Assembly: GCA_963575745.1 (NCBI GenBank)
Contig: CAUYUJ010000272.1
Location: 62,001-116,027 of the forward strand
DNA length: 54,027 bases
Direction: 5' to 3'
From: Prorocentrum cordatum
Taxonomy: Eukaryota
Below, one piece after another: positions 6,425 to 47,040 of the stretch. Within the stretch, counting starts at the first letter, position 1. Each line of letters begins with the position of its first letter. The notes beneath the pieces were generated by a model. That model saw nothing but the letters and a program-made list of their open reading frames with translations, did not search any database and was not told where the DNA came from. The position numbers and the translations under genes are program-made.

Positions 6425-6456
<32 letters not shown>

Positions 6457-28190: not shown

Positions 28191-28330
28191 GTAATTCTTT
28201 TCGTGCAGTTCGACGACCTGAAGCGGAAAGTGGCCGCGGCGCTCGCGGAATTCGGGGTGCCCAGCGTCACGCTGCACGGCAGCGTCTCGCAGCGCGGATC
28301 TATCATCAACGATTGGCAGAACAACGCGGG
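28191..28330 (+). CDS. SNF2/Rad5-like helicase, C-terminal (HELICc) exon A
   Basis: AG|G acceptor (28189-28190). Reads VILFVQFDDLKRKVAAALAEFGVPSVTLHGSVSQRGSIINDWQNNAG, matching SNF2 motif IV and the G..S..QR..I..F/W segment. Phase-2 GT donor at 28331. Confidence 0.85.
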
Positions 28331-28921
28331 GTCACCATTAGATTGCCTCCTCCTCCTCCTCCGCCTCCTCCTCCTCATCCTCCTCCTCCTCTTTCTCAAA
28401 CTCCTCGTCTTCTCCCGCCCCCCGCCCCCCCCTGGGCAGGGCGGCATAGAAATGCAGCCAAGACTGCTGTGTCAACGGGTCGCCCCAGGCGGCATCGTAT
28501 CCCCCCGTCCCTCGGCTCGGAGGCTCGCTTCGTCCACTCCAACCCCCCCGCCCCTCGCAGGGCAGGGCGGCACAAGAGCACTGCCGCGATCGCCGTGGGA
28601 GCGTAACGCTCCACCTCTGTGGCCCGCATGGGCCCCAGACCCGCAGTGTGGAGCAAGACGTTCCCTTCTCCGCCGAGTCGATCCTATCCCTCGCCCCCGT
28701 CCGCCCCCCCTCGCCCGAAGGCTCTTTTCTTCCATCCTCCCCCTCCCTCCCCCATCAGCACGGGCGCAGAAGACATGCAGCACGTGCCGCATAGCAAGTG
28801 GCAAGTGTCGCCGTCCTCTTCCTTCTCCACGCTCAGCCAGAGAGGTTCAGAGGGGGGCCAGGCAAGTAACTATAAGATTTAGTCTCCAACGGGTGGGTCT
28901 AGGACGAGGTAAAAACCGCTC

Positions 28922-29007
28922 CAGAGCGTTACGGAACGCTCTCAGAGCGTTACAGAACGCTCTCAGAGCGTTACAGAACGCTCTCAGAGCGTTCCAGAAC
29001 GCTCTGA
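28922..29007 (+). repeat. 21-bp tandem palindromic unit cagagcgttacagaacgctct, 4 copies
   Basis: Directly visible. Confidence 0.95.
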
Positions 29008-29165
29008 GAAGGCCGCGACTCCCGAGACATCCTCCAGAGCCGCCGGATCTCGGAGATTCTCGAGTTATCCTCACCCGATGTTATCCTCGCCTTGGCTTCG
29101 TCTCATTCCAGGCATTAGCATTCTCAGTCCCCCCTCGCCCCCCCACCGCACCCCGCGGACCGAAG

Positions 29166-29257
29166 GTCGTCCACCTTCGTGCTGCTGCTGTCCCTGGCGC
29201 AGAGCGCCTCCGGTACCAACCTCACCGCGGCGAGCCACGTGGTGTTCCTGCACCCCA
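29166..29257 (+). CDS. SNF2/Rad5-like helicase exon B (motif V)
   Basis: AG|G acceptor, phase-compatible with exon A. Reads SSTFVLLLSLAQSASGTNLTAASHVVFLHP (SNF2 'LLLS...G.NLT.A.HV'). The 3' boundary can slide within CCCA. Confidence 0.9.
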
Positions 29258-30312
29258 GCCGGGCCGGCCCGGCGGCTCTGCGGTCGGGAGCCTTGAGTCG
29301 GGGGTCAGTGCAAACGGGGGCCAGCCAGAGCGGCCGGTCTTGCAGGATCTTGCAGGGCCAGGGCCGCTTTGACCCGGGTTTGGGTGCAGGATCCTGCAGG
29401 ATCCTGCGCATTGACCCGGGCTCGGGCGCAGGATCCTGCAGGATCCTGCAAGGCCCGACTGACCCGGGTCTGGATTGACCCGGGTCAGAAGATCTCCGAT
29501 GCGGCCGTGCCAGCCCCCAGGGATGCTGGGGGCGGCCAAGGAGTGGAGTGATGACTTACTAGAGGGGTGGACATCATGGCGGGGGCCATGGTATCTCCCC
29601 AAATGTCATGGCGCCTCTTCTTATGTCGTCACGTTCCCTGGCCCCGCCCCCCCCATGGGCCGCGCACGCGCTTCGGGCCATGAGTTGCGCACCCCCCCTC
29701 TTGGCGAAGCCCCACTCTTGGACGCCCCCGAGAATGGAGGCCTCGGAGGGCACCCGTCATTGCCCCGAAGGCCCAACGAGGGGAGGCCCCGGGAAGCACC
29801 CCGCAGGAATTCCCGGGAGGCCCTCCGGAAGGGGAGAGGAGGCGAAGGAGGCGAAGGAGGAGGACGAGGAAGGGAAGTGGGAGGAGGCAGGAGGGCGAAG
29901 GACCAGCAGGAGGAGGAGGAGGAGGAGGAGCAGGGGGCTTGAACTTACTTGCTTCAGGCCTGCGTCGATTCGAAGTTGTGGCGCTACCTGAAGCCTGAGA
30001 CCTGAGGAGGAGGAGCAGGAGGAAGAGAAGTGCGAGAAGAAGGAAGAAGGCGAGGAGGAAAGGAGGAAGGCGAAGGAGGAAGAGGAGGAGGAGGAGGAGG
30101 AGGAGGGCGAGGAGGAGCAGGAGGGGCAGGCGGGAAGGGAGGAAGAGGAGGAGGATAGAGGAGCAGGAGGAGGAGGTGGAAGGTGGGAAGGCAAGCGGTG
30201 GAGGTGGAGGGGTGGAGGTAGGAGGAGGAGGAGGAGGAGGAGGAGGAGGAGGAGGGGGAGCCGGGGGGCTGGCGGTCGGCCGTCGGCCGTCCGCCGAGCC
30301 GGCCCGCGCCCA

Positions 30313-30356
30313 TGCTCGCCGAGACCGCCGACGTGGCGGTGGGCTACGAGGAGCAG
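30313..30356 (+). CDS. SNF2/Rad5-like helicase exon C
   Basis: (HP)MLAETADVAVGYEEQ continues exon B toward motif VI. GC donor at 30357; the acceptor is non-canonical. Confidence 0.75.
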
Positions 30357-33300
30357 GCGGCCGGCGGGGAGGAGCACGGAGGGCGAGGAGGGCTCGCCGT
30401 GTAGCAAGAGGATCCCGAGGGAACGGGTGCCGAGGAGCACGGCTTCAGCTCCTCCTCCTCCTCCTCCTCCTCCTCCTCCTCCTCCTCCTCCTCCTCCTTC
30501 TCCTTCTTCTCCTTCTTCTCCTTCTCATCCTCCTCCTCCTCCTGCTCCTCCTTCTCCTCCTCCTGCTCCCCGTTCTGGGCCTCTGGGGCCCTCCCAGGGC
30601 CGCAGGGCTGTCAGAGAACAGCTCGGGACGAAGAGCGGGTCATGGGTCCTCGGCGATGTTCCGGCCACGGGATGCAGTCTAGCAGTTACGCCTCGTTGGG
30701 AGCGCTGCGGGAGTACCCGACTCGTCCCGAACGACCGCTGGAGACCCGAGCTATGACCCGAATACCAGACGAGGATCACCAAGGGTGCCCGCGGTTCGAT
30801 CGGTGTTGCTGCGTCACAGTCGGTTCGGTTCGGTTGGTTGCTGTGTCGTTGCTGTGCCGTTGTTGCGTCGATGTGCCCTTCTTGGCTGCATGTGCAGTGG
30901 CCAATCGGTTTGGGTCGGTTTCGGTCTCGCTCAGGAGCAGCAGGAGGAGAAGCATGAGGATGATGAGGAGTTGGAGGAAGGGAAGGAGAAGGGGCACTGG
31001 TAAGAGGAGGAGGAGGAGGAGGAAAGGGAGTAGGTGGAGGAAGGGGAAGAGAGCGGGAATGACAGGGGATATTTATAAGGAAGAGGAATGGAGGAGGAGG
31101 AGGAGGAGGAGGAGGAGAAGGAGGAGGAGGAAGAGGAGGAGGATCAGGTGGAGGAGGAGGCGCGGATCGGGGCAGGCCGTTGGGCGACGTGGGCCCCGCT
31201 GGGGCAGCAGACCGGCCGAGGGGCGGCGGTGCCGGCAGGACACGAGCACCCGATGCATGATGTGGGGCGGGGCGCCCCGCAGAGTCGCTGGGGGCTCCGC
31301 CGTGTGGCGTGGGCGGCAGAGGGAGCAGAAGACGGGGAGGAGGACGAGGAGGAGGAGGAGGAGGAGGAGGAGGAGGAGGAGGAGGAGGAGGACGAAGAGA
31401 GGGAGGAGGAGCGAGACGGAGGCGAGGAGGGACGAGGAGAGGAGGAGGAGGAGGAGGAGGAGGACGAGGTGGAGGAGGGGGAGAACGAGGAGAACGAGGA
31501 GAAGGAGGCGGACCAGAGGGGGGCAAGTCGAGACAGCGGCCGCTCCTTCCCGGGATCCTCCGTTGTCTTTGGGGGGCCTCGTGAAGGCTTCTCGCCGCCA
31601 CGGACAGATAACCGCCGCGGACGGCGGGTCGAGGTGGACCCCGCGAGGGATCCGGAGGCCGATCTTGAGCGGAGGTGGGCCGGGCGGAAAAGCCGCCGTT
31701 GTCTCAATGAGCCCTCCTCCGAGAGGAGGAGGCGGAGGAGGAGGAGGAGGAGGAGGAGGAGGAGGAGGGAGGAGGAGGAGGAGGAGGAGGAGGAGGAGGG
31801 GAGGGAGGAGGAGGAGGAGGAGGAGGAGGAGGAGGAGAGGAGGAGGAGGAGGAGGGAGGAGGAGCAGGCGATCGACAGAGCAGGCGGATGGCAGCACGCA
31901 CAGTCGAATACATCGAATCGTGGACCTCCTCCTCAGATCGGCGACGAACCAGTGGGAAGTGAGGAGAGGCGGGCCTGCTCGGAAGGCTCGGAAGTTCCCT
32001 CTGCCTTCTGAGAAGTCTTCTGAGCCGTCCCCGAAGACACAGAAAATCCCGCCGCCTTCTGAGAAGGCCTTCTCCTTCTCACTCCCCCCCTCGCTCGCCG
32101 CCGATCAGAGCTAAGAGCTGCGGACATTTGTTCCTTGCGGCAGGTGCTGCCCCAGCGCGCCCCTTTCCTCCTCGTTTTCTCCCCACCAGCGCACGGCTTT
32201 TGATGGGAGGCGGGGAGAGGCGCGCGGTATAAACGTGGGTCGCTGGCGCCCGCGAAGGGGGGGTCCTCCTCCTCCTCCTCCCCCCCCGCTCCTCCTCATC
32301 CTCCCTCCTCCCTCTCTTACACCCTCCCCCTTCACCCCTCCCCCCTCCTCCTCCTCCTCTCCTCTCCTCATCCTCCTCCTCCTCCTCCTCCTCCTCCTCC
32401 TCATCATCATCATCCTCATTATCCTCCTTGCCCTCCTCCGGAGGAGGAGGAGGGAAAGGGGGTAGGCATCCCCGGAACCCTAGAAGGCCCTTATAGAGCG
32501 CCCCCCAAAGAGGTAAAAAAGACGAGGATGGGGACGAGGGGGGGGGGGCGGGGGGAGGAAGCAAGGGAGAGAGAGAGAGAGAGGGCGCCAGACGGGCCCC
32601 TTCCGTCGAGGGGGGGGGGCCTGCGTCGCGCGGCCGGCGCGGCGTCGTCCCACCCCATCCTCGTCTCTCCTTCGGGGGGTTGCCGAAGGTGCCCCTTGCC
32701 CGAGGTGCCCCCAGCTTTTCCCTCCAGTTTGGAGCCCCCCAGGGGCCTCGTGAGGCAGTGCTGTGGAGGCCGTGGGGGGCCCTCCCTGGAAGTCCTGGGG
32801 GGCACCTTGAGCCAGGGGCACTTCCAGCAGCACCCGACTCTTCCTCTCCCCAAGGACAGAAGAAGAAGAAGAGGATGGGGAGAAGAAGAAAAAAAATAAT
32901 AAGAAGAAGAAGAAAAGGAAGAGGAAGAGGAAGAGCAATAATAAGGAGAATTAGGAGAATGAGAAGAAGACACACAAGAAGAAGAAGCAGAAGAGGAAGA
33001 CGAAGAGGATGGGGGAACTCCCCCCAAGAAGAAAAGAAGAGGAGGGCGGGGCAGGAAGGGAGGCATACAATTCCTCCTCCTCCTCCTCCCCCTCCCCCTC
33101 CCCCCCATCCTCCTCCTCCTCCCTCCTCCCTCCTCTCATCCTCCTCCTCCTCCTCCTCCTCATCTCCTCCTCCCCCTCCCTCCTCCTCCTCCCTCCCCCA
33201 CTCCTTCCCCACTCACTCCTTCCTCATCTCCTCCTGCTTTCCCCCACGCATCCTCTCTCCTCCTCCTCCTCCCCTCTCCTCCTCCCCCTCCTCCTCCCCT

Positions 33301-33446
33301 CCTCCATCCTACTCCTCCTCCTCCCGCCCCTCCTCTCTCCTCCTCCGCACTCTCCTCCTCCTCCTCCCTTCCTCCAAAGGGCGCCGCCGCCCTCTCGCCC
33401 TCCCCCACCCGACCCCACCCGCCGCCCAGGCACCCGGCCCGTCGGC

Positions 33447-34583
33447 ATGGACGCCGTTGCCGAACACCTGTGGCGCCCGCGGCGCCGCCCGCCGCACCCC
33501 GCGGCCGCCCGCAGGGCCCAGTACCTCCGGGCGGAGGCGCGGGTCGCGGAGCACCTGCTGCGCTGCTTCGGGGAGCTGGCGCAGCACCGAGGCAGACAGC
33601 CCACGCGGCTGGCCACGGCCTTGGTGAAGGCGCTGGCCAAGCGCGCGGACCCAGCCGGCGACGGCCCTGGCGAGCGCGAGCCGCCGTCCGAGGCGCACGC
33701 GGAGGCGCTGGCCCGAGAAGCGTTGGCGGCCGCCCGCGCGCCAGGACCAGGGCACGACTTGCTGGAACGGCTAAGGCAGGAGGCCCGCGCCGAGCGGCAG
33801 GCGGAGGCCGCGCGCGGCGCGGACGGCACATCGGGGGCTGAGCTCAGGCCCGAGGCGCCGGCCGAGCAGCAGGCCGCGACTGCCGAGGCGCTGGCGGCCG
33901 CTCGCGCCGCGGGGCTTGAGCAGCACCTGGAGACCGAGCGGCTGGCGGAGGCAGCGCAGGGCGCCGAGGCCGAAGCCTCGCGCCCGACGGAGGCGGAGCA
34001 CACGGCCGCCGAGGCCGCGCCCCACGGGAGCCTGCCACGAGCGGCCAGCGCCGCGGAGCGGGCCAGGCCAGAAGACGCCGCGCTGGCGACCCGAGCCCAC
34101 GCCTCGGGCGGAGCGGCCAGAGACGCCAGCGGAGGACAAGAGCCGACCTATCAGGAGCTGCACGCCAAGGACCAGCTGGCGAGGTTGCAGGCCGCCGAGC
34201 AGCGGGCCACAGGGCGGCGGCGCCGAGCAGCACCGCTGGCCAAGGCGCGCGCCCCCTGGACCCGAGCGCCGCCGACCGCCGACGGCGAGGAGGTGCCCGC
34301 GCGCGGCGGGCCGAAGGCCGAGCGACTGGCTGACGCGCGGCGCCGCGCCGCAGACGCCCGCGCTCAGCTGGCCGCGGTGCAAGCGGACGCCCTCGCAACG
34401 GAGACCGCGTCGCGGACGGCGCAGGACGCACTGCTGCGGGCGGCGGCCGCGCGCCAGTGGGCGGCTGAGGCCGCGAAGGAGGCCGAGCTCGACACGGAAG
34501 CGGGGGCGCAGGACGAGAGGGCGGGCGAGGAGAAGGACGGAGCGGACGCCGTCCAGAGCTGCAAACTTTGGGGAGCCCGTTGA
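33447..34583 (+). CDS. Intronless Ala/Glu/Arg-rich predicted coiled-coil protein (378 aa) of unknown function, nested in the helicase intron
   Basis: ATG at 33447 with GC3-rich codons. Non-repetitive N-terminus RRAQYLRAEARVAEHLLRCFGELAQHRGRQPTRLATALVKAL. Confidence 0.5.
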   Translation: MDAVAEHLWRPRRRPPHPAAARRAQYLRAEARVAEHLLRCFGELAQHRGRQPTRLATALVKALAKRADPAGDGPGEREPPSEAHAEALAREALAAARAPGPGHDLLERLRQEARAERQAEAARGADGTSGAELRPEAPAEQQAATAEALAAARAAGLEQHLETERLAEAAQGAEAEASRPTEAEHTAAEAAPHGSLPRAASAAERARPEDAALATRAHASGGAARDASGGQEPTYQELHAKDQLARLQAAEQRATGRRRRAAPLAKARAPWTRAPPTADGEEVPARGGPKAERLADARRRAADARAQLAAVQADALATETASRTAQDALLRAAAARQWAAEAAKEAELDTEAGAQDERAGEEKDGADAVQSCKLWGAR

Positions 34584-35439
34584 GAAATCGGGCACACCCA
34601 GGGGAGCGGCCAGGGGCCGAGCGCACCGCCAGCGACGCCCGAGCGCGGCCGCCCCATACCCTGGACGGGAGCCCCTTGAGAATGGGGGCACATTTGGGGG
34701 AAGGGCAAGCGCTGCGGGCGTCGCCGCCACGACGCTGGCGGCACGAAACCGCTGGAAACCGCTCCTCCTCCAAGATCGAGGCCCTTGGTGACCCCTGCCC
34801 CACGAAGCCACCCAACCCTGCCCGCCAGCGAGCCAGGGACTGGCTCTCTGTAGGCAGGCACCCAGCACCTGGGAACAGGCGTCCACTACCCCATAAAAAC
34901 ATGTAATTGCTTCGTTTTGCTATGTTTATTGGGTTGGGTGTATCGTTGTCATCAACCCTCTCCCAGTATTCCAGTATTATATAGTCGTTGCCCCGTTCTC
35001 GCATGATTCGCCGTTCTATGATGCGTCATGCGTCCTCCTCATCCTCCTCCTCCTCTCCTTCCTCTCCTCCTCCTTTTTGCCTCCCTCCTCTCCTCCTTCA
35101 TCTTTCCTCCTCCTCCCTTCCTCCCCCCCCCCCCCTCCCTCCTACCCCTTCTCCTCCTCCTCCCCTCCTCCTCTTCCTCCTCTTCCTCCTCCGCCTCCTC
35201 CGCCTCCTCCTTCTCCTCCTCCTCCTCCTCCTCCTTCTCCTCCTCCTCCTTTCCGAGTGCGTGGAGGTGCCCTCCTCCCCCGACATAAGATGCTACTGCG
35301 GCCCATTGGTTGTTACTGCGGCCCGGTGGGTGTTAGCATAGCCAGGGTTCCTCCGGAGTGTATCATTCAATGAGTATGGTGAAGGGGGGGGCTCCATCAA
35401 GCTCCCCTCCCCCCCTTCACCGAAGAGCCTCTCGGAAGA

Positions 35440-35660
35440 GCCTCTGGCGCTCTCCCAAGAGCCTCTTGGAGCCGCCGAAGACCTTGCAGCCGCCGAAGAG
35501 CCTCTTGGGCTCGCCGAAGAGCCTCTTGGGCTCTCCGAAGAGCCTCTTGGGCCCTCCGTAGAGCCTCTCAGGGCCTCCGAAGAGTTTCTTGGGCTCTCCG
35601 AAGAGCCTCTTGGGGCCGCCGAAGAGCCTCAGCCGCCGAAGAGCCTCTTCGAGCGGCCGA
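35440..35660 (+). repeat. 21-bp tandem repeat (ccgaagagcctcttgggctc..)
   Basis: About 9 copies. Confidence 0.9.
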
Positions 35661-35904
35661 AGAGCGTGGTGTGGTGTTGTTTGTTGTTGTTGGTGGTGCT
35701 GTTGGTGTTGTTGTTGTTGTTGGTGGTGTTGGTGTTGGTGTTGGTGTTGTGGTTGTGGTTGTGGTTGTGGCTGTTGTTGCTGGTGGTTTGTTTGTTTGTT
35801 GTTGTTGTTGTTGTTGTGGGTATGGTGTTGTTGTTTGTTCGTTTGTTTGTTAGTGCGTTTTGTTGGTATTGTTTGTGTGTTGCTGTTTTGAGATTTTCTG
35901 CCCC

Positions 35905-36370
35905 AGACACCCTAGGACCCCCCCGTAGCAACCCCTGGGTCTAGTAATCCCTAGGACGAGTAATCCCTATGATTAGAGGTCCTTAGGACGAATACTCCCC
36001 AGGTCTAGTAATCCCTACCATCGGTAATTCCTATGGCTAGTATCCCCTAGGACATATATTCCATAGGACAAGTACTCCTTAGGACTAATACGCCCAAGGA
36101 CTAGTGCCCCCTTGCCCCTTGCACTAGAATCCCTAGGACTAGTACTCCCTAGGGGTAATAATCCCTAGGACTAGTACTCCCTAGGGCTATCACTCCCAAG
36201 CGCCAGTACTTCCTTGGGGTAGCACTCCCTCGGACTAGCACTCCCTAGGACGCCGCAGCACGAGTAGTCCCTAGGACTAGTACTCTCCTAGGACTGGTAC
36301 TCCCTAGGGCTAGCACTCCCTACAGCTAGTACTCCGTAGGACGAGTACGCCCTATGAGTGGTATTCCCTA
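35905..36370 (+). repeat. About 17-bp degenerate tandem repeat ccctaggactagtact
   Basis: Repeated CCTAGG/ACTAGT/AGTACT palindromes. Confidence 0.85.
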
Positions 36371-36410
36371 ACAAGGCATTGGTCGCAACGAGGCATCCTC
36401 CATGAGCCGT

Positions 36411-36426
36411 CTTGAGCCAAACATGG
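36411..36426 (-). other. Isolated spliced-leader relic
   Basis: Minus strand CCATGTTTGGCTCAAG equals the SL 3' portion CCATTTTGGCTCAAG with one inserted G. Confidence 0.55.
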
Positions 36427-36499
36427 TTTTTGGAAGAGGGAGAGGGAGGGGCAGGGAGAGGGGGAGGGGAAGGGGTAGGGAGAGGGAGGAGGAGGAAAG

Positions 36500-36514
36500 G
36501 CTGCTACTACTACG

Positions 36515-36588
<74 letters not shown>

Positions 36589-36621
36589 CACGACTACTAC
36601 TACTACGACTACTACTACGAT

Positions 36622-36662
<41 letters not shown>

Positions 36663-36674
36663 ATACTACTACCA

Positions 36675-36706
<32 letters not shown>

Positions 36707-37477
36707 GCTGCTGCTGCTGACTGCTGTTACTACTATACTAACCTTATTAATATACTACTATACTACTTATAATATACTTACTACTACTACTACTACTACT
36801 ATACTACTACTACTACCACTACTTACCACTACTAATACTACTACTACTCCACTACTATACTACTACTACTACTACTAACTACTGAATACTTACTACTACT
36901 AACTACTACTCTACTACACTCCTACTTCCTACTACTTACTGGACTAATCGATAATACAGACTACTTAACTACTACTCACTATTACTACTACTACGACGAC
37001 TTACGACTTACGATACGGGACTACGACTACTACTACGAACTACACTACTACTACTACGACTGACTACAATACTAGTATGTCGAAATTAAATTTAATACTA
37101 CGACGACGACACGACGGACGGACGACGACGACGACTACTACTACTACGACTACTACTACTTTACTATCCTATTACTACTTACTCACTACTACACTACTAC
37201 TACTACTTACTACTACTACTACTATAAATTACTTACTTACTCACTACTACTATTACTACTACTACTAATACTACTACTACTATACTACTACTTACTACTT
37301 ACTACTATACTACTACTACTTACTACATACTACGGAATTACTACGATACTACACTACTACTACTACTACTACTAACCAACTACTACTACTACTGCTTACA
37401 CTACTACTTACTACGACTTACGAACGGATTACGACTACGACTACGAACTTCTACCAACTACTAATACTACTACTACT

Positions 37478-37548
<71 letters not shown>

Positions 37549-37553
37549 GACTG

Positions 37554-37585
<32 letters not shown>

Positions 37586-37609
37586 ACTTACTTAGCAGTA
37601 GTAACTACT

Positions 37610-37643
<34 letters not shown>

Positions 37644-37658
37644 TACTGCTGCTACTAT

Positions 37659-37694
<36 letters not shown>

Positions 37695-37898
37695 AACTAC
37701 TACTACTACTCGTACTACTACTCGTACTACTACTCGTGTTATTACTAGTACTACTACTAGTAGTACTACTACCAGTACTAATACTACTAGTACTAGTACT
37801 ACTACTAGTAGTAGTAGTAGTAGTAGCAAAAATAATAGGAGTAGTAGTAGTAGTGGTAGCAGTAGAGGTTGTTGTAGTAGTATTAGTACTACTACTAC

Positions 37899-37932
<34 letters not shown>

Positions 37933-37992
37933 TCTACTACTACTACTACTACTACTACTATTATTACTACTACTACTACTACTACTACTACT

Positions 37993-38087
<95 letters not shown>

Positions 38088-38088
38088 C

Positions 38089-38142
<54 letters not shown>

Positions 38143-38150
38143 GCTACCAC
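36500..38150 (+). repeat. About 1.65-kb (CTA)n microsatellite with (CGA)n and inverted (GTA)n blocks
   Basis: Directly visible. Confidence 0.97.
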
Positions 38151-39359
38151 TGCGCTTTTGCCAGGTGGGAGTTACTGTGGCCACTTTTGCTTGCGCGGGA
38201 GTGCATTCCCTTAAAGGGTTGCGAATTTCTCCAGATCTAACATGAGATACCTTTACATATTACTTTTCATTGAACGGCCAGCGCGGGCCACAGTAACTCC
38301 CATCCGGCCGCGCGACGGGCCACACTAACACCCAACGGGCCACACTAACACCCAACGGGCCACAGTAACAACCAGTCGCCTCCTCCCCCCCCCTCTGCCG
38401 CCCCGCCCCACTGGGGCAGCCGCGGCGGGACCGGCTCCTGCTCAGGAGCGCCATGCTTCTGGGGGCCTTCGGCGGCTCCATCGGAGGTATGCACTAGCCG
38501 GGCCAGGGGGAGTTCCAAAGCAAGTTCGCTTAATACTCATGGGCGATGTCGCTTCTCTTCCCTGGGCCCGGAATTTCTTCCATCTCGACATCCTCGACGC
38601 GTCGTTCCCAGCCGAGATTTGGAAGGGCCATCACCCTGGCGACCTTCTGTTCTGACAGCACGCCTGCGCCCAAACAAATCGTCCCCACTCTCTGTGATCC
38701 GCTGCTTTTGGGTGCACCGAATTCATGGACGACCTTGCGTGGTGGATGGCGCCCGAAGTCCTCATCCAAGGGGCCTTTGGGAGCTTAAGCCCCCGATCCC
38801 AATCGAGCAGGTGGTCCAGCGGTGCCTTGTTTGTGCGCTTCTTGTCGGGCTTCGCACCAGAGCCCACTGAGACAAAGAGAAGGCAGGCTCGGGTGAGGGA
38901 GGGAGACTGCTTTGGACAATGCGCTGAGCGTTGCGAGTCCCCCCTGCGCCTATGAACCTCATCGATAGGGCGGGGGGGGGCGGTTGATGGAGAGGACCGA
39001 GGGGTGTGCCCCTCCCGAGGGAGCGAGGCCAACTCCCCTGGGTCCACCCACCCATTCGCGCAGGGCGGCCAGGCTTGGTTCGGATGCCCGCGTAGGTGTG
39101 CAGTCTTGTTTCCTCTCCAGGCGTCCTGGCCTCGCCGACGGGTCATCAGGTTGTCGAGCGCGGCGTTGGGGGACGCGCTGGTATACGATGCAAGTTGCGC
39201 AGACCCACTGGTCTCACCGGCAGTCCAGGGTGGTGGCGCCACGAGTGATAGCTGCACCGCCTCAGCGGTTGCCCTCTCTTTGCCTTCGGCCTTGTGTGGA
39301 GACCTTTCTGCAGGTCATCCAAGGACACGCCGTTAGCCTTCAGGTGGATCTGTTCCAGG

Positions 39360-40140
39360 TCATCGATCGTCGGACCAGCGGCACGCAGCAGCACGCAGCC
39401 AGGCGCGCCGACACGCACGTTCGCCCAGGCTGGCCTCTGCTGCCTCGGGCTGGGTTCCGGCGTCGGCCGTCTCGTCCCGGTGAGCCCCGAGGTCGGGCTG
39501 CAGGACGTCACAGGCGTGGTCCAGGTCAGTCTCAGCTTCCTCGTTCTCGGCGAGAGTGACCTGGCACGTTCTGCTCCAAAGCTGCTCGCCGTCCAAGTGG
39601 ACGACAGCCTTCTGCGACGCCTCCTCGGTTGCGAAGTGGATCAAAGGGTAGCCCCCGCAGAGCTGGATAGTTGTGACGGGGCCGAACAGGCTGAAGGTGG
39701 CCTGGACGCCGCCCATGTCGAGGGCCTCTTCGTGGTCCTCGACGCGGATGGTCCTGCGAGAAGTGGTTTCTCGAAGGGCGTCCGTCCGCGGCGACGAGGA
39801 GCACGCGGCCTCTTGGACCCTGACGTTGTTGTCGGGGCCGCGGGACGCGCTGCTCTTTCTGGCTGAAGCCGGGTCCTGCACCGCCTGCGGTCCACTGGCC
39901 TCTCGGGGCCAGCGCCCTGGGGGCCGCCCTGGGTCTTCCTCTGCTGAGGTGCCCACCTTGGACAGTGCTGCCAGGGCAGCACGGGCTTTCTTCAGGTCTT
40001 CGCTCTTGGCGGCGGCGTCGGAGTTGCCGAGCCCGGCCTCCCCCTCGAGCTCCTTGCCGTTGCCGGCGCCCGCGAGGCTGGCGCCCGCCCCGAGCTCGCC
40101 GCCCTCGCGGGGCTCGGCGAGCGCGGTCCAGCGAGCCTGC
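39360..40140 (-). pseudogene. Degraded ORF containing an RRM-like domain (about 39545-39760)
   Basis: TIRVEDH...VQATFSLFGPVTTIQLCGGYPLIHFATEEASQKAVVHLDGEQLWSRTCQVTLA fits RRM topology (F..FG.V, RNP-1-like GYPLIHF, A..A...LDG). Coding-like sequence continues in shifted frames to about 38530. Confidence 0.6.
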
Positions 40141-40249
40141 CTGCTGCGCGAGCGGCAGCTTCCGCAGCCTGCGCGACGCTGCCAGCCGCGGGGCACGCGA
40201 CGGCAGCCTTGGGGAGACAGTGCGCGGGGCGGTGATTGTTTGTTATTCC

Positions 40250-40450
40250 TTGTTTTGCCGATCGGCGTGGGCCTTCGCACCCCCCCCTCCCCCCCCTCCA
40301 TGGAGTAGATCCTGGCCGTCTTTGGCGCCTGTTTCAAGCAGGTGGGGTCTCACCCACAGGACGCACGGTCCCAAACAGTCGCACTCAGCAGAAGTCCGGA
40401 GCCAGACCCCCCCCCTTCCGCCCAATGTCGAAACGCCGAGTCAAAAAAAA
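40250..40450 (+). mobile_element. About 200-bp dispersed SINE-like repeat, copy 2
   Basis: Matches 18089-18295; ends in A8. Confidence 0.6.
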
Positions 40451-41694
40451 TCGTGCACGTGCCCGCTGCCCGAGAGCAACACGCGCTCGGCCCTGATGGT
40501 GTGGAAGCCCCCCCGCAGCTGCTGGTCGGTTCGTCTCGGCTGCTGCCGCGGCGATGGTGGGAGTGGGCAAGAGTGGCGTCGCCTCCTGCCGCAAAGTACA
40601 TGTCTGCGTTGCGCAAGCAGCCAGGGCTTGCTTCCCGCCCTCGTGCTGCTAGTTGTCGGAACACTTCTCGTCCCAGTCCCCTTCCACGCGCCAGTCTGAG
40701 TACCAGCTGTCCAAGTACGGGTCGTTGTAGAAGCGATGCCAGGAGCCACCCATGAGTTGCAGGATACTTGCGACATCTGCGGGCGATGGCGGCAGCGCCT
40801 TCCGAGCCGCATGGACCAGGCCGTTGAAGGCTGCAGGCTGATACACACATCAGACATCTTAAGAAAACGCGTCGACATCCATGGACCCAGATTTCGCTTC
40901 CTGCAATTAAGAATCCGGGCTGGACCCTGGGCGCTTTCGTGGAGCCTTGTTTCTTCGTCGAATGTTCGTGCACGTGGACCTGGACTGCTGGTCAAGATGA
41001 CGCTTCGAGCAGCGCCCGCTTTCTCAGCCCAAAGATCTTCATCCAGAGCGCCGGGGTGTGAGTGGGTGTGCGTCTCCACGACGGTCCTTTAATCTCGGCT
41101 GATGGACGCCAGCCGATGGGGTAGGCGCAATAGTTCATGCAATAGTTGGTGCTTGGATGCAATAGTTTGCGGCGTGGATGCAATAGTTCCGCGCGGGTGT
41201 TGCTTCGTCTTGTTTCGTGCGCAATAGCTCAGGCGGTTTGCAATAGTTCGTGCCCCCTCGCAATAGTACGCGCGCAATAGTTCAGGCAAACGAACTATTG
41301 CACCTACTGCCGTCCCCCCTTTTGTGTTCCCCCCATCGCTCCATCGTAAAAGGTGGCCGGCCCGAGGCCATGGCGCGAATCCTGCGGGCGCCACGCCCGG
41401 GCGTCGCCGCGAGAGGGCGGGCGGGCGCGCCCCGATCTCTCGGGCGCAGTCGCCTGGGCCTGCTCCTCCCCCTCCTCCTCCTCCCTCCGAGAGGAGGGCG
41501 AGGCGGAGGGGGAGGGGGACAAGCTAGGTGCGCTCGCGTCATATCTGACGTCCTACCCCTCCCTCCCATCCCTTACCATGGCGCTGATTTTCTCTATCCG
41601 CGGACGCGTGTCGTAGCGGACTTGTGGCTCCGCGCGCGCGTGCGTAGTGGGCGGTGGTGCGCGTGCGTGCGTGTGTGCGTGCGTGTGTGGTTGT

Positions 41695-41853
41695 GGTGGT
41701 GCTGGTGCTGGTGCTGGTGCTGGTGCTGGTGCTGGTGCTGGTGTTGGTGCTGGTGCTGGTGTTGGTGCTGGTGCTGGTGCTGGTGCTGGTGCTGGTGCTG
41801 GTGCTGGTGCTGGTGCTGGTGCTGGTGCTGGTGCTGGTGGTGGTGGTGGTGGT
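41695..41853 (+). repeat. (TGGTGC)n hexanucleotide repeat
   Basis: Directly visible. Confidence 0.95.
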
Positions 41854-42382
41854 GCGGCGCGGTGGTGGCGGGCGGATGGGCGCGCGAGAAAGAGGACCGC
41901 GCTGCGGCGAGAACGCCATCCTCAACGACGGAGGCCAAACACCGATCCGAAAATGAGGCCCACGCTGATTCGGAACGATTCGGGAGCAGAAATGAGGCCG
42001 GCGCCTCAGCGAGAGCAGCATTTTGGGGGGGGGGGGGAACAAAAAAAAAAAAAAAAACGGAAACCCGTTTCCCGGGAATCCTGTGTGTAAAAAACAATAC
42101 GCGGGGGGGTGTCGGATATCTTCGGGACGCCATCAGGGGAAGTGGGAGAGTATTTTCATATTGTGTAATTGTGGAGAGGAATAAGGAGGCCGGGGAAGAG
42201 GAGGACTGAGGAGGAGGAGGAGGAGGAGGGAGGAGGAGGAGGAGGAGCGGGGAGGAGGAGGAGGAGGAGGAGGAGGAGGGAGGACCATCGCATGCTAATG
42301 AGGAAGGCTAAGGTTAGGCCGACCCGACCCTAACCGAAGCCTGTGGGTTACATCCGCTTTCCCCTTACGCTCGCTTTCGTCA

Positions 42383-45300
42383 CTACGTCGCCCCTCCTTC
42401 CTTGAGGAGCTGGGCCGCAGGGATGGGCAGGGAAAGTCGGGGGCGGGCCTTCATACTACTCTTGGGATGACGGCCGCTTGCCAGGAGGGACCACGCACCT
42501 TGGGAGAACTTGCTTTGGAAGCGCTCCTTGCATTCACCTTTGAGACCTTTGAGGTTGCTTTCGCTGTAGCGGCCGCACCTCTTACAAACGACTAGGAAGG
42601 ACTCGACATCAAGGTAATCGCATATCATTAAATGGTGCTTCTGGGGGTCCCTAGTTAGCTTTGACAACATGACTGAATTACCTGGGCATGCTTCACGCAT
42701 GCGGGCCTTGCGGGCACTGTCCGTGCGGGCGCGGGTATGACACGCTAGGCACAGCCAATGATTATTAAGCCATGCCCACGGATGTCTGACCACGCCCGGG
42801 GGGGCACGGCACGCACGAGCACGCCGAGGACGACCCCCGGGGGGCGGGGGTGGTGCAGTCCACTCGCTGACTGCTCCCGCTGCCCCAACTGGGGGGTTGA
42901 GGCTCTGGGCGGGCTTCTCGTAGGCCTTCTTGCCCGACTTCGGAGCGAGAGGGGCCCGCAAGGAAAGCGCCTCAGCAGCATACTTCACAAGCCTCTGAAC
43001 TCGGCTACGGCATTCTTTATAATACTCGATTTCTCTCTGGGACGGGGCGGGGATTCTGGCAGCCGCTTGTTTGGCCACCTTGTCCGCCCGGTCATTTCCT
43101 TTGGCAACAAACCAGTCCCTCGAGCCGACCACCAGGGACGACAGATCCTGGTGGGCCTTTACTTTCCCGATCTCGAGGGGCGCAAAGCAGCTCTGGGTCC
43201 TGGCCAGAACTGAAACTCCTGAGTACATTTCCCTCGGTGAGACTTCGGCGCTCTGGTGCACCGAGAGGATGCCCTTGAAATCCGTCCACGCTTTGGTGAC
43301 TCTGGGGCAGGAAGTAGCAACTAAAAACCCCAGGTGTTCGGCAGCTGGCGACGTGGGGGGGAGGCTGGCCCCCACAGGGCCTGAGAGACTGGCAACCAGG
43401 TCGCCGTCCTCGTCGATTTTGACCACGGACCAGGCGGGGGCGTCGTACACCGCGGGCCCAGGTTTCAAAACACTGCCATCGTGGAAAACTTCTCCTTGCA
43501 TGGCCACCTCCTTGGGCAGCCCATCACGAGACCAATATACAGCCTGATCTAGTCCTAAACCAGGGGGCCTCAGAGCTATGGGTTCAGGTCGAAGTTGAAA
43601 TCCTAACACATATGGAAATCCATTCCTCGGGTCCTTGAACTCTTCGACATCTGCTTCATTTAACAGTTCCTCTCTCAAGTTGTGGGTCTGCGGGCACTCG
43701 AGGAGCCTGTGGGGGATGGAGTCCACGGGGCCCTTGCACAGCTCGCATTCGACTTCATTATGATAGCCTGCCTCGGCCATCTGTTCGTTGGACCAAATAC
43801 ACTGGCAGCCATATGAAAGCAGCGTCTTCCTTTTGTAGGCCAGCACTGTACTGTCCTGCAGCGCGTGCTGCATGACCGACGGGTCGAGCGGCTCGTCGAA
43901 ACCGAGCTTCTGCCCCGCCTTCGCGTCTAACTGCAACTGCCACTGGGATTGAAACAGCTTCTTGATGAGGGCAGGGGAGGTAGCGATGAGAGGGTAGCCC
44001 TGGCCTTGCGAGTCTCGAAAGACGAGCGGGTCGGGCATGGGCCACCCCAGACAGCTCAAGCTGAGAAGCGTTGCCCCTAAGGGCCCTCGGATCTGGCACC
44101 ATTTCGTCGGGGGCTTGTGGGGGACCTGGAGGGCTTGTTCGCGGAGACCCACCAGAGAAAAGCCGATCGTACCAGGATAATGAGCAACTCTCCAGATCAG
44201 GTTGGCCCAATAACAGGCCGGCCCCAGAGCAGCACTCCACGTCGGGCCCCTCAATATCGATAATGCCAGGGACCTGGATCTTGTAGCACAGCGGGGCCCT
44301 ACAATCTTGAGGTAGAGGGACTGGGCTTCGTGCAACTCAGGGTTGGTGAGGCTGACGACCTCGGCGCCATAGTAGGCGGCTGCTTTCAAACCTGTCTGAT
44401 AGACCTTCCGCATATTCGCACCTGCTCGCCTAATCTGGGCCATGCGGTGGAGTCGACGTTTCATATTGGAGGTTCGCTTCGCCAGAGTTTTTCTGGCCTT
44501 CTTCGAAACCCTATTGCCCATGGTGAAATCGACTCCGAGGTTTGGCGCAGACTGTGCTTGGTTGACTCCATCTGGCCCACTGTACTTGCCTAGAGCTTTG
44601 GCCAGGCGATGCCGCACTGCAGCAGACGAGCCCAGCACTGCAGCCTTGTGCAAGGCGACCGAGCAGTCGAGGTCCTCCTCGATTAAATCTAGCATGCTGT
44701 CGGAGGCCTGCGCCAGGTCCGACACCAACAGGCGAACGCTTGTGTTGTTGCTTGTCAACATCTATGAAGATTGAGGGGTCCACGGTGGGGAATTTCGGAA
44801 CCCAGGAGTCCACGGGGGGAACCGTATACATCTGGACGTTGTAAGTCGCAAACGAGCAGCCAGCAGGGAAGCCTTTGATAGCACACCCCGCGTAGGTAGC
44901 CAATGTTCTGGTTGCGACAGCCCTGGGACCCCCATACTGATTCATCATAATACACGTGAGCGTCTCCGAAAATCCAGAAGAGATCGCCCGAGATGTCCAT
45001 TTCTCCCGATTGACATTCTCATTATAGTTAGATAAATCCCATAAAACCCACCAGTGTGGACAGCTTGATAGCCAGCAAGTTCAGCCTTCAAGGCCCGAGC
45101 ATAAACAGTTTCAAGCACACCTCGACCGGACTGATGAGCAAGATAAGGCCTCTTGTTGGCCCTTTCCCACCGACGAGCTTCCCCCTGGCGAATTTTGGAC
45201 CGCGCCCTCCAGAGGGCAGGGAGCAGACCGATACCACGGTACGAGGGGCCCTCAGACTGGTCAGGCTTGCGCTTCTCAATCAGCGTGATAATGACCCCAC

Positions 45301-47040
45301 GGATGGCTGTCGGAAATGCTCCAATCTCCTCGATCGCTGCCAAAAGCTTACACACATGTCCCAGTTCAACATAGCTGAGATCAGCCAAGTGACGAGGGTG
45401 AAACCCATCACAAGTCTGGCTGGTAGATTTTGGGAATCTTTTGGCAGCTGATCTGATCTGGCCAGGCGTGATGGGCCCCAAGCGGTCACGCTCGGCCGAC
45501 GGCAAGTTAAAGTCGTGCCCCTGCGGCGCGGCCTGCCACAATCCTGCGAGGCGGGCTGCCTCGGACTGGAGCAACTCTGAAGGCCGACCTGAAAATTTCT
45601 GCAGCTCGGGGCGCCAAATTTTCTGAGGTTGCCAGGATGTGAGCTTTGAGGTCCAGCGATGGGCCCAACCAACTCCCCGAGACATGGCCTCCTGGACCCA
45701 GTTGTTCCAAGACGTTGTTTCACTTTGTCGGTCCTTGGCCTCCTCAGCTTGGAGCGCGTGATCAACTGCATCATCGAGCTCTTCAAATACCTTCAACACG
45801 AGCTTGGGATCCATCTGGCCATTGTCCTGGTCCTGGGCAGCAGCGCCTAGAGCAGTCCTAACACTGGCGAGCAAACGGGCAAACTCCTCGGTACCTTCGA
45901 GCTCTGGGGGTGGCGACTGGATGCTGGTCAAAATCTCCGAAAGGTACAACTCCCCCTTGGAATAAACCCGTCGGATGACATCCATAACTTTGTTTTCAAC
46001 CACCGAATCGGAATTGATAGACTCCTCCAACTGGCCCTGGGTTCCACCTCTCGAGCGGCCCCCGGTGCCCAGCGGATCTTTGGGAGGCCCACTCGCGGGG
46101 CAGTGGGCGACTTGATCGGAGTGTCCGTGCGAATACTGATCGTCTTTGCCATGTCCGAGGCGAAGTACTGGCACGCCGAATCTAGGGCCAGCAAGCGGGC
46201 CTCAATCCCAGACTCTCGATCAATGACCTGGTCCAGGAATTCCAAGGCGGCCTCCGCACGGCCCCAAGACGGCACATAGTTTGTCGGCCCATAAGGCCTG
46301 GAAGTAGCGAGTGGTTGGGGCTTCTCCAAGACTGGCACCATGAAGGGCTCCCCGCAGCGCAGCTGGAACAGCACGGGCCTATGCGGGCTCATGGGGTACT
46401 CGTCCAGAACAGTGGCCCCTGAGAGGTCCTGGTCGAAACACGACGAGGCGAGAACGAAGTCGATGATGGACTCAGAGTTCTTCATCTTACATGTTGGTTT
46501 GGTCGGGGCCAAAATCTTAAAGCCTGCTCTCAGCGAGTAGTTCGACTCGATAAGCTTACTCGCCGGAACATTGAAACCCCCAGCAATGATGAGTGGCTGT
46601 CGTACAGCGTCCTGAATTGTTGCGACCCCAGCTAAGAGCTCTAAGTTGTACTGGTTTAGGCCCACCCCGTCGGCCAAGTAGAGAGATTCTAGTACGAATG
46701 GACGATGTCCAGGAAGCTCAAGTGAAACCGCTGTGCACCGTGACTCTGCTACCCCTGCAGGCACTGGCACACGAGATACTCCAAAGTCATGCCCGTCACG
46801 AATCAAAATCCCTGTCCCTTGGACAGGGTACCCTTTCTCACTGAGCACGGCTGGAGAGAGCATCGCATTCCACCCCTCTCGCTCACACCATTGTACGATG
46901 AAAGGGAGCGCATCCTTCAATACCCGAACTTCTTGACAGCAGATCATGTCCACCGTCTCGGCTGCTTTTGACTCCAGAAACTTCCGAATGGATCTCCAGC
47001 AGCTTCCATTGATAGCGGCGAACCTGACCGCGTTACCCAC
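42383..47040 (-). pseudogene. LINE ORF2: APE, RT, zinc knuckle, RNase H, two C-terminal Cys/His motifs; frameshifts near 46075, 45045 and 44759
   Basis: APE: AIN, CQEVR, GTGILI, SLYL, GGFN, IDFVL, HRPV. RT: YRGIGLLP, WDLSNY, GFPAGC, FID(D)L. Zn: CELC...HRLLECP. RNase H: FHDGS, AEHLG, TDFKG, KVKAH, GNDRADKVAK. C-terminal: WLCLAC, VCKRCG. Confidence 0.9.

What the first reader, a model, noticed from the sequence alone, without database searches (positions are those of the whole stretch)
29254..30312. Non-canonical, transposon-like (introner) intron with TIRs and a CCCA direct repeat in a conserved helicase gene
Seen: exon B ends ...TTC CTG CAC CCC A and exon C resumes CCC ATG CTC GCC, so protein continuity (FLHP-MLAETADVAVGYEEQ-AIGR) requires removing 1055 nt. 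The 4-bp direct repeat CCCA (29254-29257 and 30309-30312) lets the junction slide, but all five registers give non-canonical ends (CC-CG, CC-GC, CA-CC, AG-CC, GC-CA). Just inside are 16-bp inverted repeats with one mismatch: CGGGCCGGCCCGGCGG (29260-29275) and CCGCCGAGCCGGCCCG (30291-30306). The other three introns of this gene are G[T/C]-AG. Established: non-canonical introners with short inverted and direct repeats are described in the parasitic dinoflagellate Amoebophrya. Inference: a structure-defined, non-GT-AG intron coexisting with ordinary introns in one gene, implying a second splicing or excision route.
Basis: partly seen in the sequence, partly recalled or inferred. Interest (0 to 1): 0.85.

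Follow-up and report, generated by a model that had tools for sequence, protein, structure and literature searches.

The report
Hairpin-bounded odd intron in dinoflagellate helicase
A 1,055-base insert in a conserved dinoflagellate helicase gene lacks normal intron ends, is bracketed by a 4-base repeat and a strong hairpin, and is missing exactly from the messenger RNA, as in a rare intron class known so far only from a parasitic relative.

Summary
CCCA stands at 29254-29257 and 30309-30312. A 16-nt inverted repeat (15 of 16 complementary) lies 2 nt inside each copy. All five junction registers lack G[T/C/A]..AG.

The gene is the 3' part of a dinoflagellate SNF2-RING helicase.

In 4 of 4 public runs laid, from four studies and one on record as poly-A RNA, one contig per run joins 29253 to 30309. 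Each joint skips 1,055 nt, with 0 mismatches and no extra letters. The same contigs splice the neighbouring 835-nt GT..AG intron.

All 13 orthologues fetched have the same spacing across the joint. A Symbiodiniaceae-like genomic contig has no intron at this site.

Best reading (about 0.6): RNA-level removal of an Amoebophrya-type "introner element" intron. Its ends are brought together by a stem of about 23 bp.

Main rival (about 0.3): the RNAs come from a gene copy or strain without the insert. No DNA run of this organism could be laid, so this is not excluded.

Which enzyme removes the insert is not shown.

Novelty: a new member of a known kind, in a core, free-living dinoflagellate.

The parts
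28191..28330 (+). Exon A of the SNF2-RING helicase (Helicase_C part). It is preceded by an AG|G acceptor at 28189-28190.
   Evidence: Contig pieces cover 28189-28329 with 0 mismatches in 4 of 4 runs. tblastn of P0001 matches here. Sequence read.
28331..29165 (+). Ordinary 835-nt GT..AG intron with a 4-nt repeated boundary (GGTC). It serves as the positive control.
   Evidence: Joint 28329->29165, 'GT..AG (cut +1)', both=4, in 4 of 4 runs. Best end inverted repeat is only 6 nt.
29166..29257 (+). Exon B (…SSTFVLLLSLAQSASGTNLTAASHVVFLHP, plus one base).
   Evidence: Contig pieces cover 29165-29253 with 0 mismatches. Translation.
29254..29257 (+). Direct repeat copy 1 (CCCA).
   Evidence: One search reports 'both = 4' for the joint.
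29258..30312 (+). The 1,055-nt non-canonical intron or insert, given here in the GC..CA register. It could equally be 29254-30308, or any register between.
   Evidence: Joint 29253->30309 skips 1,055 nt in 4 of 4 runs, with no letters between the pieces.
29260..29275 (+). 5' arm of the inverted repeat. It is itself partly palindromic.
29284..29500 (+). Dispersed, transcribed repeat inside the intron. Its limits are not the intron ends.
   Evidence: Many other contigs match at 90-95% identity, starting at 29284 and ending near 29500, with unrelated loose ends. Six small ORFs, P0043-P0048, are 65-82% identical.
29830..30260 (+). GGA-rich low-complexity filling of the intron.
30291..30306 (+). 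3' arm of the inverted repeat.
30309..30312 (+). Direct repeat copy 2 (CCCA).
30313..30356 (+). Exon C, 44 nt (…MLAETADVAVGYEEQ).
   Evidence: Contig pieces cover 30309-30359 with 0 mismatches. P0001 residues 121-137 are 100% identical.
30357..48635 (+). 18,279-nt GC..AG intron with repeated boundary CAG|GCG. The same position holds an intron in the Symbiodiniaceae-like contig L010.
48636..48710 (+). Exon D (AIGRAARHGQQRDVVHVWRFVTEGT; helicase motif VI).
   Evidence: P0001 residues 136-161 are 100% identical.
48711..53867 (+). 5,157-nt GC..AG intron.
53868..53993 (+). Exon E (VEQTISDRNMAAMAAREAAG…). It is followed by a further GC donor at 53994.
   Evidence: P0001 residues 162-203 are 100% identical. 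Sequence read.

Best explanation
The 1,055 nt are a real intron of the transcribed gene and are removed from the pre-mRNA, although no register gives G[T/C/A]..AG ends.

The two ends pair. The 16-nt inverted repeat extends to about 23 bp, and 3 further bp form between the flanking exons. This places the two CCCA copies opposite each other in a small internal loop at the foot of the stem.

Cutting and joining at equivalent points of the two copies leaves one CCCA and restores the conserved reading HP|ML.

The intron is lineage-specific, since the site is uninterrupted in a Symbiodiniaceae-like genome. It has the anatomy of the 'introner elements' of Amoebophrya.

My preferred enzyme is inferred, not shown. 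I favour the dinoflagellate spliceosome, using GC at 29258-29259 as donor, as three other donors of this gene do. The stem would then hold the non-AG end CA|T at 30311-30312 in the place of the acceptor. A separate, structure-reading endonuclease and ligase route is about equally possible.
For: Shown:
1. One contig in each of 4 of 4 runs laid, from four studies, joins 29253->30309. Run X7 is on record as poly-A RNA. There are 0 mismatches in the three exon pieces and no letters between them. The same contigs splice the 835-nt GT..AG intron, so they are processed RNA.
2. A metatranscriptome protein, P0001, is 100% identical over exons A-E and reads straight across the joint.
3. All 13 orthologues fetched have 14 residues between FLHP and the Q that in 12 of them precedes AIGR/AIAR (the P0038 gene model reads ASCD after it). 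The exact removal therefore restores a conserved helicase segment.
4. The contig L010 encodes FLHPMLAPNAERAVGYEMQ without interruption and shares the next intron position. The odd intron is therefore a lineage-specific gain.
5. The direct and inverted repeats at the ends are far beyond chance. They are absent from the gene's other three in-window introns.

Inferred:
6. The start GCCGGG resembles this gene's other GC donors, GCGGCC, GCCGCC and GCCTCC.
7. No other transcribed contig at 90% identity or more covers 29258-29283 or the 3' arm. This argues against a young, high-copy, recently active element, and so against a very recent private insertion.
8. The locus keeps five exons identical to the RNA across 26 kb, so it is the expressed gene or a very recent copy of it.
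9. Introns with inverted repeats of 8-20 nt plus direct repeats of 3-5 nt are reported for 2.4% of introns of a GC-rich free-living dinoflagellate (supplement of PMC10666404, passages read).
Against: - No DNA run holding this stretch was served. All 20 holders carry only about 0.07-0.13 of the words (0.12-0.13 in 18 of them), roughly what exons A and B alone would give. It is therefore not shown that the organisms that made these RNAs have the insert in their DNA.
- Removal between two copies of a target-site-like repeat is exactly what RNA from an insert-free copy would look like.
- No contig retaining either intron boundary was seen.
- Two protein searches for read-through products found none. 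One search returned nothing. In one search, 0 of 6 hits hold the exon-intron junction.
- Core dinoflagellates are reported to have 'nearly universal AG' acceptors (PMC12584245, passage read).
- The full-length RNA fold does not use the terminal stem in its minimum-energy structure. Folds of 1.1 kb are unreliable, however.
Confidence: 0.6

Rival explanations
1. The difference is in DNA. The assembled locus carries a transposon-like insertion, with target-site duplication CCCA and terminal inverted repeats, that is not spliced. The RNAs come from an insert-free paralogue or from strains without the insertion.
For: - The joint is exactly one repeat copy, as an empty site would look.
- No DNA holder of the organism could be laid.
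- No intron-retaining contig or protein was found.
- The runs carry three different organism labels plus environmental samples, so they need not be the assembled strain.
- Dinoflagellate genes are often multi-copy (recalled).
Against: - Five exons over 26 kb are identical to the RNA, so the copy would have to be very young.
- The insert nevertheless looks composite. It holds a nested dispersed repeat and GGA expansions, and its inverted repeat is imperfect, with the outermost 2 nt unmatched.
- No second copy of its ends is seen in the window or in four transcriptomes.
- Vegetative dinoflagellate cells are haploid (recalled). An unspliced insert in the only copy would therefore truncate a conserved helicase.
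Confidence: 0.28
2. The joint is a reverse-transcription artefact. The mRNA keeps the insert, and reverse transcriptase jumps across the stable stem between the two CCCA copies during library preparation.
For: Short direct repeats, non-canonical ends and a strong stem of -49 kcal/mol are the known signature of template switching (recalled, not read here).
Against: - The joined form is the only form assembled in 4 of 4 runs from four studies, at contig depths 8-26. There is no contig across either boundary. Artefacts are normally a minority.
- The gene is conserved and would otherwise be truncated.
Confidence: 0.05
3. The intron only looks non-canonical because of an assembly or base-calling error. 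The true 3' end would be an AG, or the insert is a misassembly.
For: - The four bases 30309-30312 cannot be checked by the RNA contigs, because the repeat makes them ambiguous.
- The scaffold has a 100-N gap at 26169-26268.
Against: - Two adjacent substitutions would be needed to turn the assembled 3' end into an AG in the right register.
- A misassembly would not create a 15-of-16 inverted repeat exactly at the two joints.
Confidence: 0.03

Closest known systems
Non-canonical introner elements (IEs) of Amoebophrya A25 and A120 (Farhat et al. 2021, PMC7789003; passages read)
   Same: - The ends are not GT..AG.
- A 16-nt inverted repeat lies between the 5' and 3' ends; their range is 8-20 nt.
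- A 4-nt direct repeat overlaps the exon/intron borders; their range is 3-5 nt.
- As in their A120 pattern, the repeat lies just outside the arms, within 2 nt.
- The hairpin is predicted to join the exon ends.
- The position is lineage-specific.
- Canonical introns coexist in the same gene.
   Different: - The host is a core, free-living, GC-rich dinoflagellate, not a syndinian parasite.
- The intron is 1,055 nt. Their analysis window was 40-1,000 nt.
- Family membership, meaning repeated copies, could not be tested here.
- The ends are GC-rich, not the TTA… or TAT… motifs of their families.
- Here RNA and DNA are not shown to come from one strain.
Introner elements or ILEs annotated in free-living dinoflagellates and Symbiodiniaceae (PMC10666404 with supplement; bioRxiv 10.1101/2020.10.14.339549; passages read)
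   Same: - Short direct repeats, often 4 nt, plus inverted repeats at the intron ends.
- Intron gain by insertion.
- GC donors are common.
   Different: - Those introns were defined on gene models restricted to G[T/C/A]..AG, and they recruit a proper splice site from the duplication (GHNN or AGGH) or from the element end.
- Here the duplication is CCCA and the 3' end is not AG.
Identically repeated intron boundary (IRIB) of dinoflagellate introns (Mendez et al. 2015, PMC5032977; sections 11 and 15 read)
   Same: - The last 4 nt of the exon equal the last 4 nt of the intron, and the repeat stays once in the mRNA.
- The neighbouring ordinary introns show the same feature: GGTC, CAG|GCG and G|G.
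   Different: The IRIB as described always holds GG or AGG at the splice point. CCCA holds neither.
Nonconventional introns of euglenids (as summarised in PMC11282704; passages read)
   Same: - Non-canonical junctions.
- Duplication-like repeats at the borders.
- Terminal pairing that brings the ends together.
- They coexist with spliceosomal introns.
- The AG..CC register fits their pyrimidine|purine rule at both junctions.
   Different: - The lineage is unrelated.
- Their characteristic CAG/CTG pairing positions were not compared here.
- Excision as circular RNA was not tested here.
Non-canonical introns of Fritillaria borealis (as summarised in PMC11282704; passages read)
   Same: Transposon-derived introns with non-GT..AG ends are removed by an adapted U2 spliceosome.
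   Different: Those are animal introns with dominant AG..AC and AG..AT ends. No role of a terminal stem is described in the passages read.

Membership tests
Amoebophrya-type non-canonical introner element | Splice-site dinucleotides differ from the canonical motif, with the junction supported by RNA. | tested here: met
   Five registers, none G[T/C/A]..AG. The joint is present in 4 of 4 RNA-run contig sets.
Amoebophrya-type non-canonical introner element | An 8-20 nt inverted repeat between the 5' and 3' ends of the same intron. | tested here: met
   16 nt, 15 of 16 complementary, starting 3 nt inside the GC..CA register. Duplex energy is -49.0 kcal/mol.
Amoebophrya-type non-canonical introner element | A 3-5 nt direct repeat overlapping the exon/intron boundaries. 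| tested here: met
   CCCA occurs twice. One search reports both = 4.
Amoebophrya-type non-canonical introner element | Repeated: member of a family of similar introns in the genome. | not testable with these tools
   No whole genome is held. Within the window and four transcriptomes there is no second copy of the ends.
Amoebophrya-type non-canonical introner element | Insert present in the DNA of the same strain whose RNA lacks it. | not testable with these tools
   No DNA holder was served.
Canonical dinoflagellate spliceosomal intron | G[T/C/A] donor. | tested here: inconclusive
   Met only in one of five registers (GC at 29258-29259).
Canonical dinoflagellate spliceosomal intron | AG acceptor, usually followed by G. 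| tested here: not met
   No register ends in AG. The next exon base in the GC..CA register is T. The other four acceptors seen in the window are AG|G.
IRIB-type dinoflagellate intron boundary (Mendez 2015) | A 2-9 nt identical repeat at both boundaries, kept once in the mRNA. | tested here: met
   4 nt.
IRIB-type dinoflagellate intron boundary (Mendez 2015) | The repeat contains GG or AGG at the splice point. | tested here: not met
   CCCA holds no G.
DNA-transposon-derived introner (ILE) with co-opted splice sites | Target-site duplication directly flanking terminal inverted repeats, in a multi-copy family. | tested here: inconclusive
   The direct and inverted repeats are present, but 2 unmatched nt lie between them. 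Copies are not testable.
Self-splicing group I/II intron or IRE1-type (Hac1/Xbp1) intron | Match to the RNA family model. | tested here: not met
   Rfam scan of 28100-30500: 0 of 13 listed matches reach a gathering score. The bZIP/Hac1 match (24.2 bits against 41) is internal and on the minus strand.

The most novel reading that the evidence does not exclude
Core, free-living dinoflagellates, and not only the parasite Amoebophrya, may remove a class of introns whose ends are defined by a terminal stem and a short direct repeat rather than by G[T/C/A]..AG. This would happen alongside ordinary splicing in the same transcript.

Dinoflagellate gene finders accept only G[T/C/A]..AG, so such introns would have been missed or mis-modelled genome-wide.

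The route would then be old (dating to the dinoflagellate ancestor) or easily evolved. Its enzyme could be found in a culturable alga.
Probability: 0.5. Interest if true: 0.8.

Novelty: new member of a known kind. Interest (0 to 1): 0.7.

Why it matters
If the removal is at RNA level, structure-defined non-canonical introns extend from syndinian parasites to core dinoflagellates. That has three consequences.

1. It bears on how introner insertions at sites without a usable splice motif can survive in conserved genes.
2. It bears on whether the dinoflagellate spliceosome tolerates non-AG acceptors or a second excision route exists.
3. It bears on annotation. Pipelines limited to GT/GC/GA..AG would break this gene model and others like it.

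The case is also a clean test object. It is one conserved gene, with ordinary introns beside the odd one as internal controls.

Tried and rejected
- **Whole genome.** None is held, so no genome-wide scan for sister elements was possible.
- **Six-frame Pfam scan by long references.** It was replaced by 115 ORF references, which gave only a weak reverse-transcriptase hit, below Pfam's cut-off.
- **My first guess for the exon after D.** I placed it at 48967 (TIEELV…). This was wrong: P0001 puts it at 53868.
- **Canonical rescue.** A GC donor at 29258 with the AG at 30297-30298 would leave 14 extra nt and shift the frame, and it is not seen in the contigs. A micro-exon is excluded, because the contig pieces abut.
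- **IRE1-type and bulge-helix-bulge reading.** The only CNG|NNGN-like site at the 5' junction would cut one base too far right for the observed mRNA. Rfam gave nothing.
- **Read-through (intron-retaining) proteins.** One search returned none. One search returned 6 hits, all to the interior repeat and none with the junction. This is weak evidence either way.
- **Parts of the stretch without contig cover.** The unique parts of both introns are uncovered. This says nothing about whether they are absent from DNA.
- **Earlier findings of the scan.** There were none for this genome or this sequence. The five findings under the words 'dinoflagellate intron' concern other things.
- **Full-length fold.** The fold of 1,091 nt does not use the terminal stem. 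I do not weigh it.

Full report
**1. What is in the sequence**

The window is GC-rich (about 0.55-0.74 in most 1-kb bins) and full of GGA/CCT microsatellites and dispersed repeats.

At the finding's coordinates the description is exact:
- CCCA stands at 29254-29257 and at 30309-30312, 1,055 nt apart.
- The arms 29260-29275 and 30291-30306 are complementary at 15 of 16 positions.
- The five possible registers give the ends CC..CG, CC..GC, CA..CC, AG..CC and GC..CA.

**2. The gene**

The open frames on the plus strand around the finding encode the C-terminal helicase part of an SNF2-family protein.

A search with exon A (46 aa) found 42 proteins. Nearly all come from marine metatranscriptomes and dinoflagellate transcriptomes. 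Named ones include Effrenium voratum and Symbiodinium natans. Their domain order is SNF2_N, RING finger, Helicase_C. The organism is therefore a dinoflagellate.

Its GC content resembles the 59.7% reported for Prorocentrum cordatum (bioRxiv 10.1101/2022.07.25.501386, passage read). That is only a resemblance, and I do not name the species.

P0001 is a 246-aa protein from a metatranscriptome contig. It is 100% identical to the window over exon A from VILF on (P0001's three residues before it, TAK, belong to an upstream exon not found in the window), over all of exons B to E, and it reads straight across all joints.

Exon and intron map:

| Part | Coordinates | Length / ends |
|---|---|---|
| Exon A | 28191-28330 | |
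| Intron | 28331-29165 | 835 nt, GT..AG |
| Exon B | 29166-29257 | |
| Odd intron | 29258-30312 | 1,055 nt |
| Exon C | 30313-30356 | |
| Intron | 30357-48635 | 18,279 nt, GC..AG |
| Exon D | 48636-48710 | |
| Intron | 48711-53867 | 5,157 nt, GC..AG |
| Exon E | 53868-53993 | followed by another GC donor |

All four ordinary acceptors seen in the window are AG followed by G. The exon upstream of A was not found in the 28 kb of window before it.

**3.

A search of public runs with 28181-29800 found 20 holders from 8 studies. Each holds only about 0.07-0.13 of the sampled words, roughly the share that the exons alone would give. No run holds half or more.

I laid four runs from four studies on 28150-30420. 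X3, X9 and X12 have no library kind on record. X7 is poly-A RNA-Seq. In each of the 4 runs, one contig of 386 to 3,786 nt lies on the stretch in three abutting pieces:
- 28189-28329
- 29165-29253
- 30309-30359

There are 0 other letters and 0 gaps (table 8).

Table 5 lists two joints in all four runs:
- 28329->29165, 'GT..AG (cut +1)'.
- 29253->30309, 'skips 1055, CC..CG', with 4 letters that fit either side.

The pieces are consecutive in contig coordinates. There is thus no micro-exon and no use of the AG at 30297-30298. The contigs remove the ordinary intron as well, so they are processed RNA whatever the library label.

**4. Conservation**

All 13 orthologues fetched have exactly 14 residues between FLHP and the Q that in 12 of them precedes AIGR/AIAR. 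P0038, a genome-derived model, runs on into the next intron after that Q. This independently marks that intron position.

L010 is a 23.7-kb metagenome contig whose best protein matches are Symbiodiniaceae. It encodes …GTNLTAASHVVFLHPMLAPNAERAVGYEMQ in one uninterrupted exon, then has a GA..AG intron at the same place as the window's 18-kb intron.

The odd intron's site is therefore empty in a relative. The intron is a lineage-specific gain, and its exact removal restores a conserved segment between helicase motifs V and VI.

**5. Is the end structure more than chance?**

- Among 19,296 random position pairs in the window, 74 had an inverted repeat of at least 15 of 16 within 30 nt of both ends. 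164 had a 4-nt direct repeat, and 1 had both.
- The 16-mer, with up to 2 mismatches, occurs nowhere else in the window.
- The two ends form a duplex of -49.0 kcal/mol: 2 + 9 + 6 + 6 bp of intron stem, plus 3 bp between the exons (29250-29252 with 30313-30315). The CCCA copies sit in the internal loop at its foot. 0 of 997 random windows paired as well with the 5' end.
- The three ordinary introns have best end inverted repeats of 6, 6 and 7 nt. The row for the 18-kb intron was computed with its start set 2 nt too far right, which does not affect a 40-nt search window materially.

A short repeated boundary is not special in itself. The ordinary introns here have GGTC, CAG|GCG and G|G. Such 'identically repeated intron boundaries' are described for dinoflagellates in general, but always around AGG or GG (PMC5032977, sections 11 and 15 read).

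**6. What the insert is made of**

- Only 29564-29698 has another, 77% identical, copy in the window.
- In the RNA runs, many other contigs match 29284-29357 and 29428-29500 at 90-95% identity. They have unrelated sequence beyond those limits (tables 7 and 8).
- Six small ORFs in a public proteome, P0043-P0048, are 65-82% identical to the read-through frame of that stretch. None contains the exon-intron junction.
- The interior thus holds a dispersed, transcribed repeat, followed by about 430 nt of GGA-rich filling.
- The 26 nt at the 5' end and the 3' arm are not covered by any other contig. Whether the ends belong to a transposon family cannot be told without the genome.
- Rfam gives nothing at gathering level.

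**7. How it most likely works**

Shown:
- The RNA lacks the 1,055 nt exactly.
- The neighbouring introns are ordinary.
- The ends can pair strongly.
- The site is empty in a relative.

Inferred: the removal is at RNA level, guided by the stem, which puts the two repeat copies side by side.

I lean to the spliceosome for two reasons:
- The GC..CA register starts with GCCGGG, like this gene's other GC donors (GCGGCC, GCCGCC, GCCTCC).
- The only nearby AG (30297-30298) is buried in the stem.

A non-AG acceptor is unusual, however. A. carterae splice sites are described as having 'nearly universal AG' acceptors (PMC12584245, passage read). A separate structure-reading route has been discussed for Amoebophrya and for euglenids (PMC7789003; PMC11282704; passages read). 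I consider it about as likely.

**8. Rivals**

*Insert-free DNA copy or strain.* This is the serious rival. Removal between two target-site-like repeats is exactly what an empty site looks like. I could not lay DNA reads of the organism (the caps are used).

Against it:
- The locus is identical to the RNA in five exons over 26 kb, so it would have to be a very recent copy.
- The insert looks composite and its inverted repeat is imperfect.
- No other copy of its ends is expressed.
- Vegetative cells are haploid (recalled).

I give it about 0.28.

*Reverse-transcriptase template switching.* It has the same signature (recalled). It should be a minority product, whereas here the joined form is the only one in four studies. 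I give it about 0.05.

*Assembly error at the acceptor.* It would need two adjacent substitutions. I give it about 0.03.

**9. Comparison with what is known**

The anatomy meets three of the defining features of Amoebophrya introner elements: non-canonical ends with RNA support, an inverted repeat of 8-20 nt, and a direct repeat of 3-5 nt at the borders. The geometry also resembles their A120 pattern (PMC7789003, passages read). Two further features could not be tested: family membership, and DNA and RNA from one strain.

Introns with such direct and inverted repeats have been counted in free-living dinoflagellates. They make up 2.4% of introns in P. cordatum (supplement of PMC10666404, passages read). 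Those counts were made on gene models built with tools that admit only GT/GC/GA donors and AG acceptors. The Symbiodinium and Polarella introner-like elements recruit proper splice sites from GHNN or AGGH duplications (bioRxiv 10.1101/2020.10.14.339549, passages read).

My four searches and the passages I read turned up no report of non-AG, hairpin-bounded introns in a core dinoflagellate. That is a limited search of an open-access library, not proof of absence.

**10. Verdict**

- Observation: confirmed.
- Interpretation: partly supported. The junction is real in RNA. The RNA-level mechanism and the transposon nature are not yet shown.
- Novelty: a new member of a known kind, in a new lineage.
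- Interest: 0.7.

Noticed in passing
window 30357-30420: In all four runs the depth just past the exon C donor exceeds what the spliced contig alone gives (table 2, my arithmetic). A second contig may therefore read on into the 18-kb intron. That frame stops at 30402-30404. This could be intron retention, an alternative 3' end, or low-complexity cross-matches.
   Followed up: partly
window 1-28190: The exon upstream of exon A (P0001 residues 1-44) was not found anywhere in the 28 kb before it. The preceding intron is therefore longer than 28 kb, or the exon lies in the 100-N gap at 26169-26268, or the scaffold is rearranged.
   Followed up: partly
window 23646-26615 (+): A long open frame, broken by the N gap, has a weak reverse-transcriptase match (RVT_1, E 4.4e-4, 20.4 bits, below the 29.6 cut-off). 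It is probably a LINE-like element inside the upstream intron. Long open frames on the minus strand at 42386-48331 had no Pfam match.
   Followed up: partly
window 28920-29010 (in the 835-nt intron): A tandem repeat of about 21 nt. It is matched at 90-95% identity by other transcribed contigs in the runs and gives only sub-threshold miRNA-like Rfam hits.
   Followed up: no
window 2764-4102 and 14199-16144; 4950-7432 vs 9878-12188: There are large internal repeats. One is a tandem or dispersed array shared by 2.8-4.1 kb and 14.2-16.1 kb (71-77% identical). The other is an inverted duplication, 84-93% identical.
   Followed up: no
P0043-P0048 (hits to window 29284-29440 frame): Six small ORFs carry a prasinophyte label in their source, yet match a repeat that sits in a dinoflagellate intron at 65-82% identity. 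The cause could be a shared repeat, contamination or mislabelling.
   Followed up: no
window 30357, 48711, 53994: Three of the four ordinary donors seen in this gene are GC (GCGGCC, GCCGCC, GCCTCC), and all four ordinary acceptors are AG|G. L010 uses GT and GA donors at its introns.
   Followed up: partly
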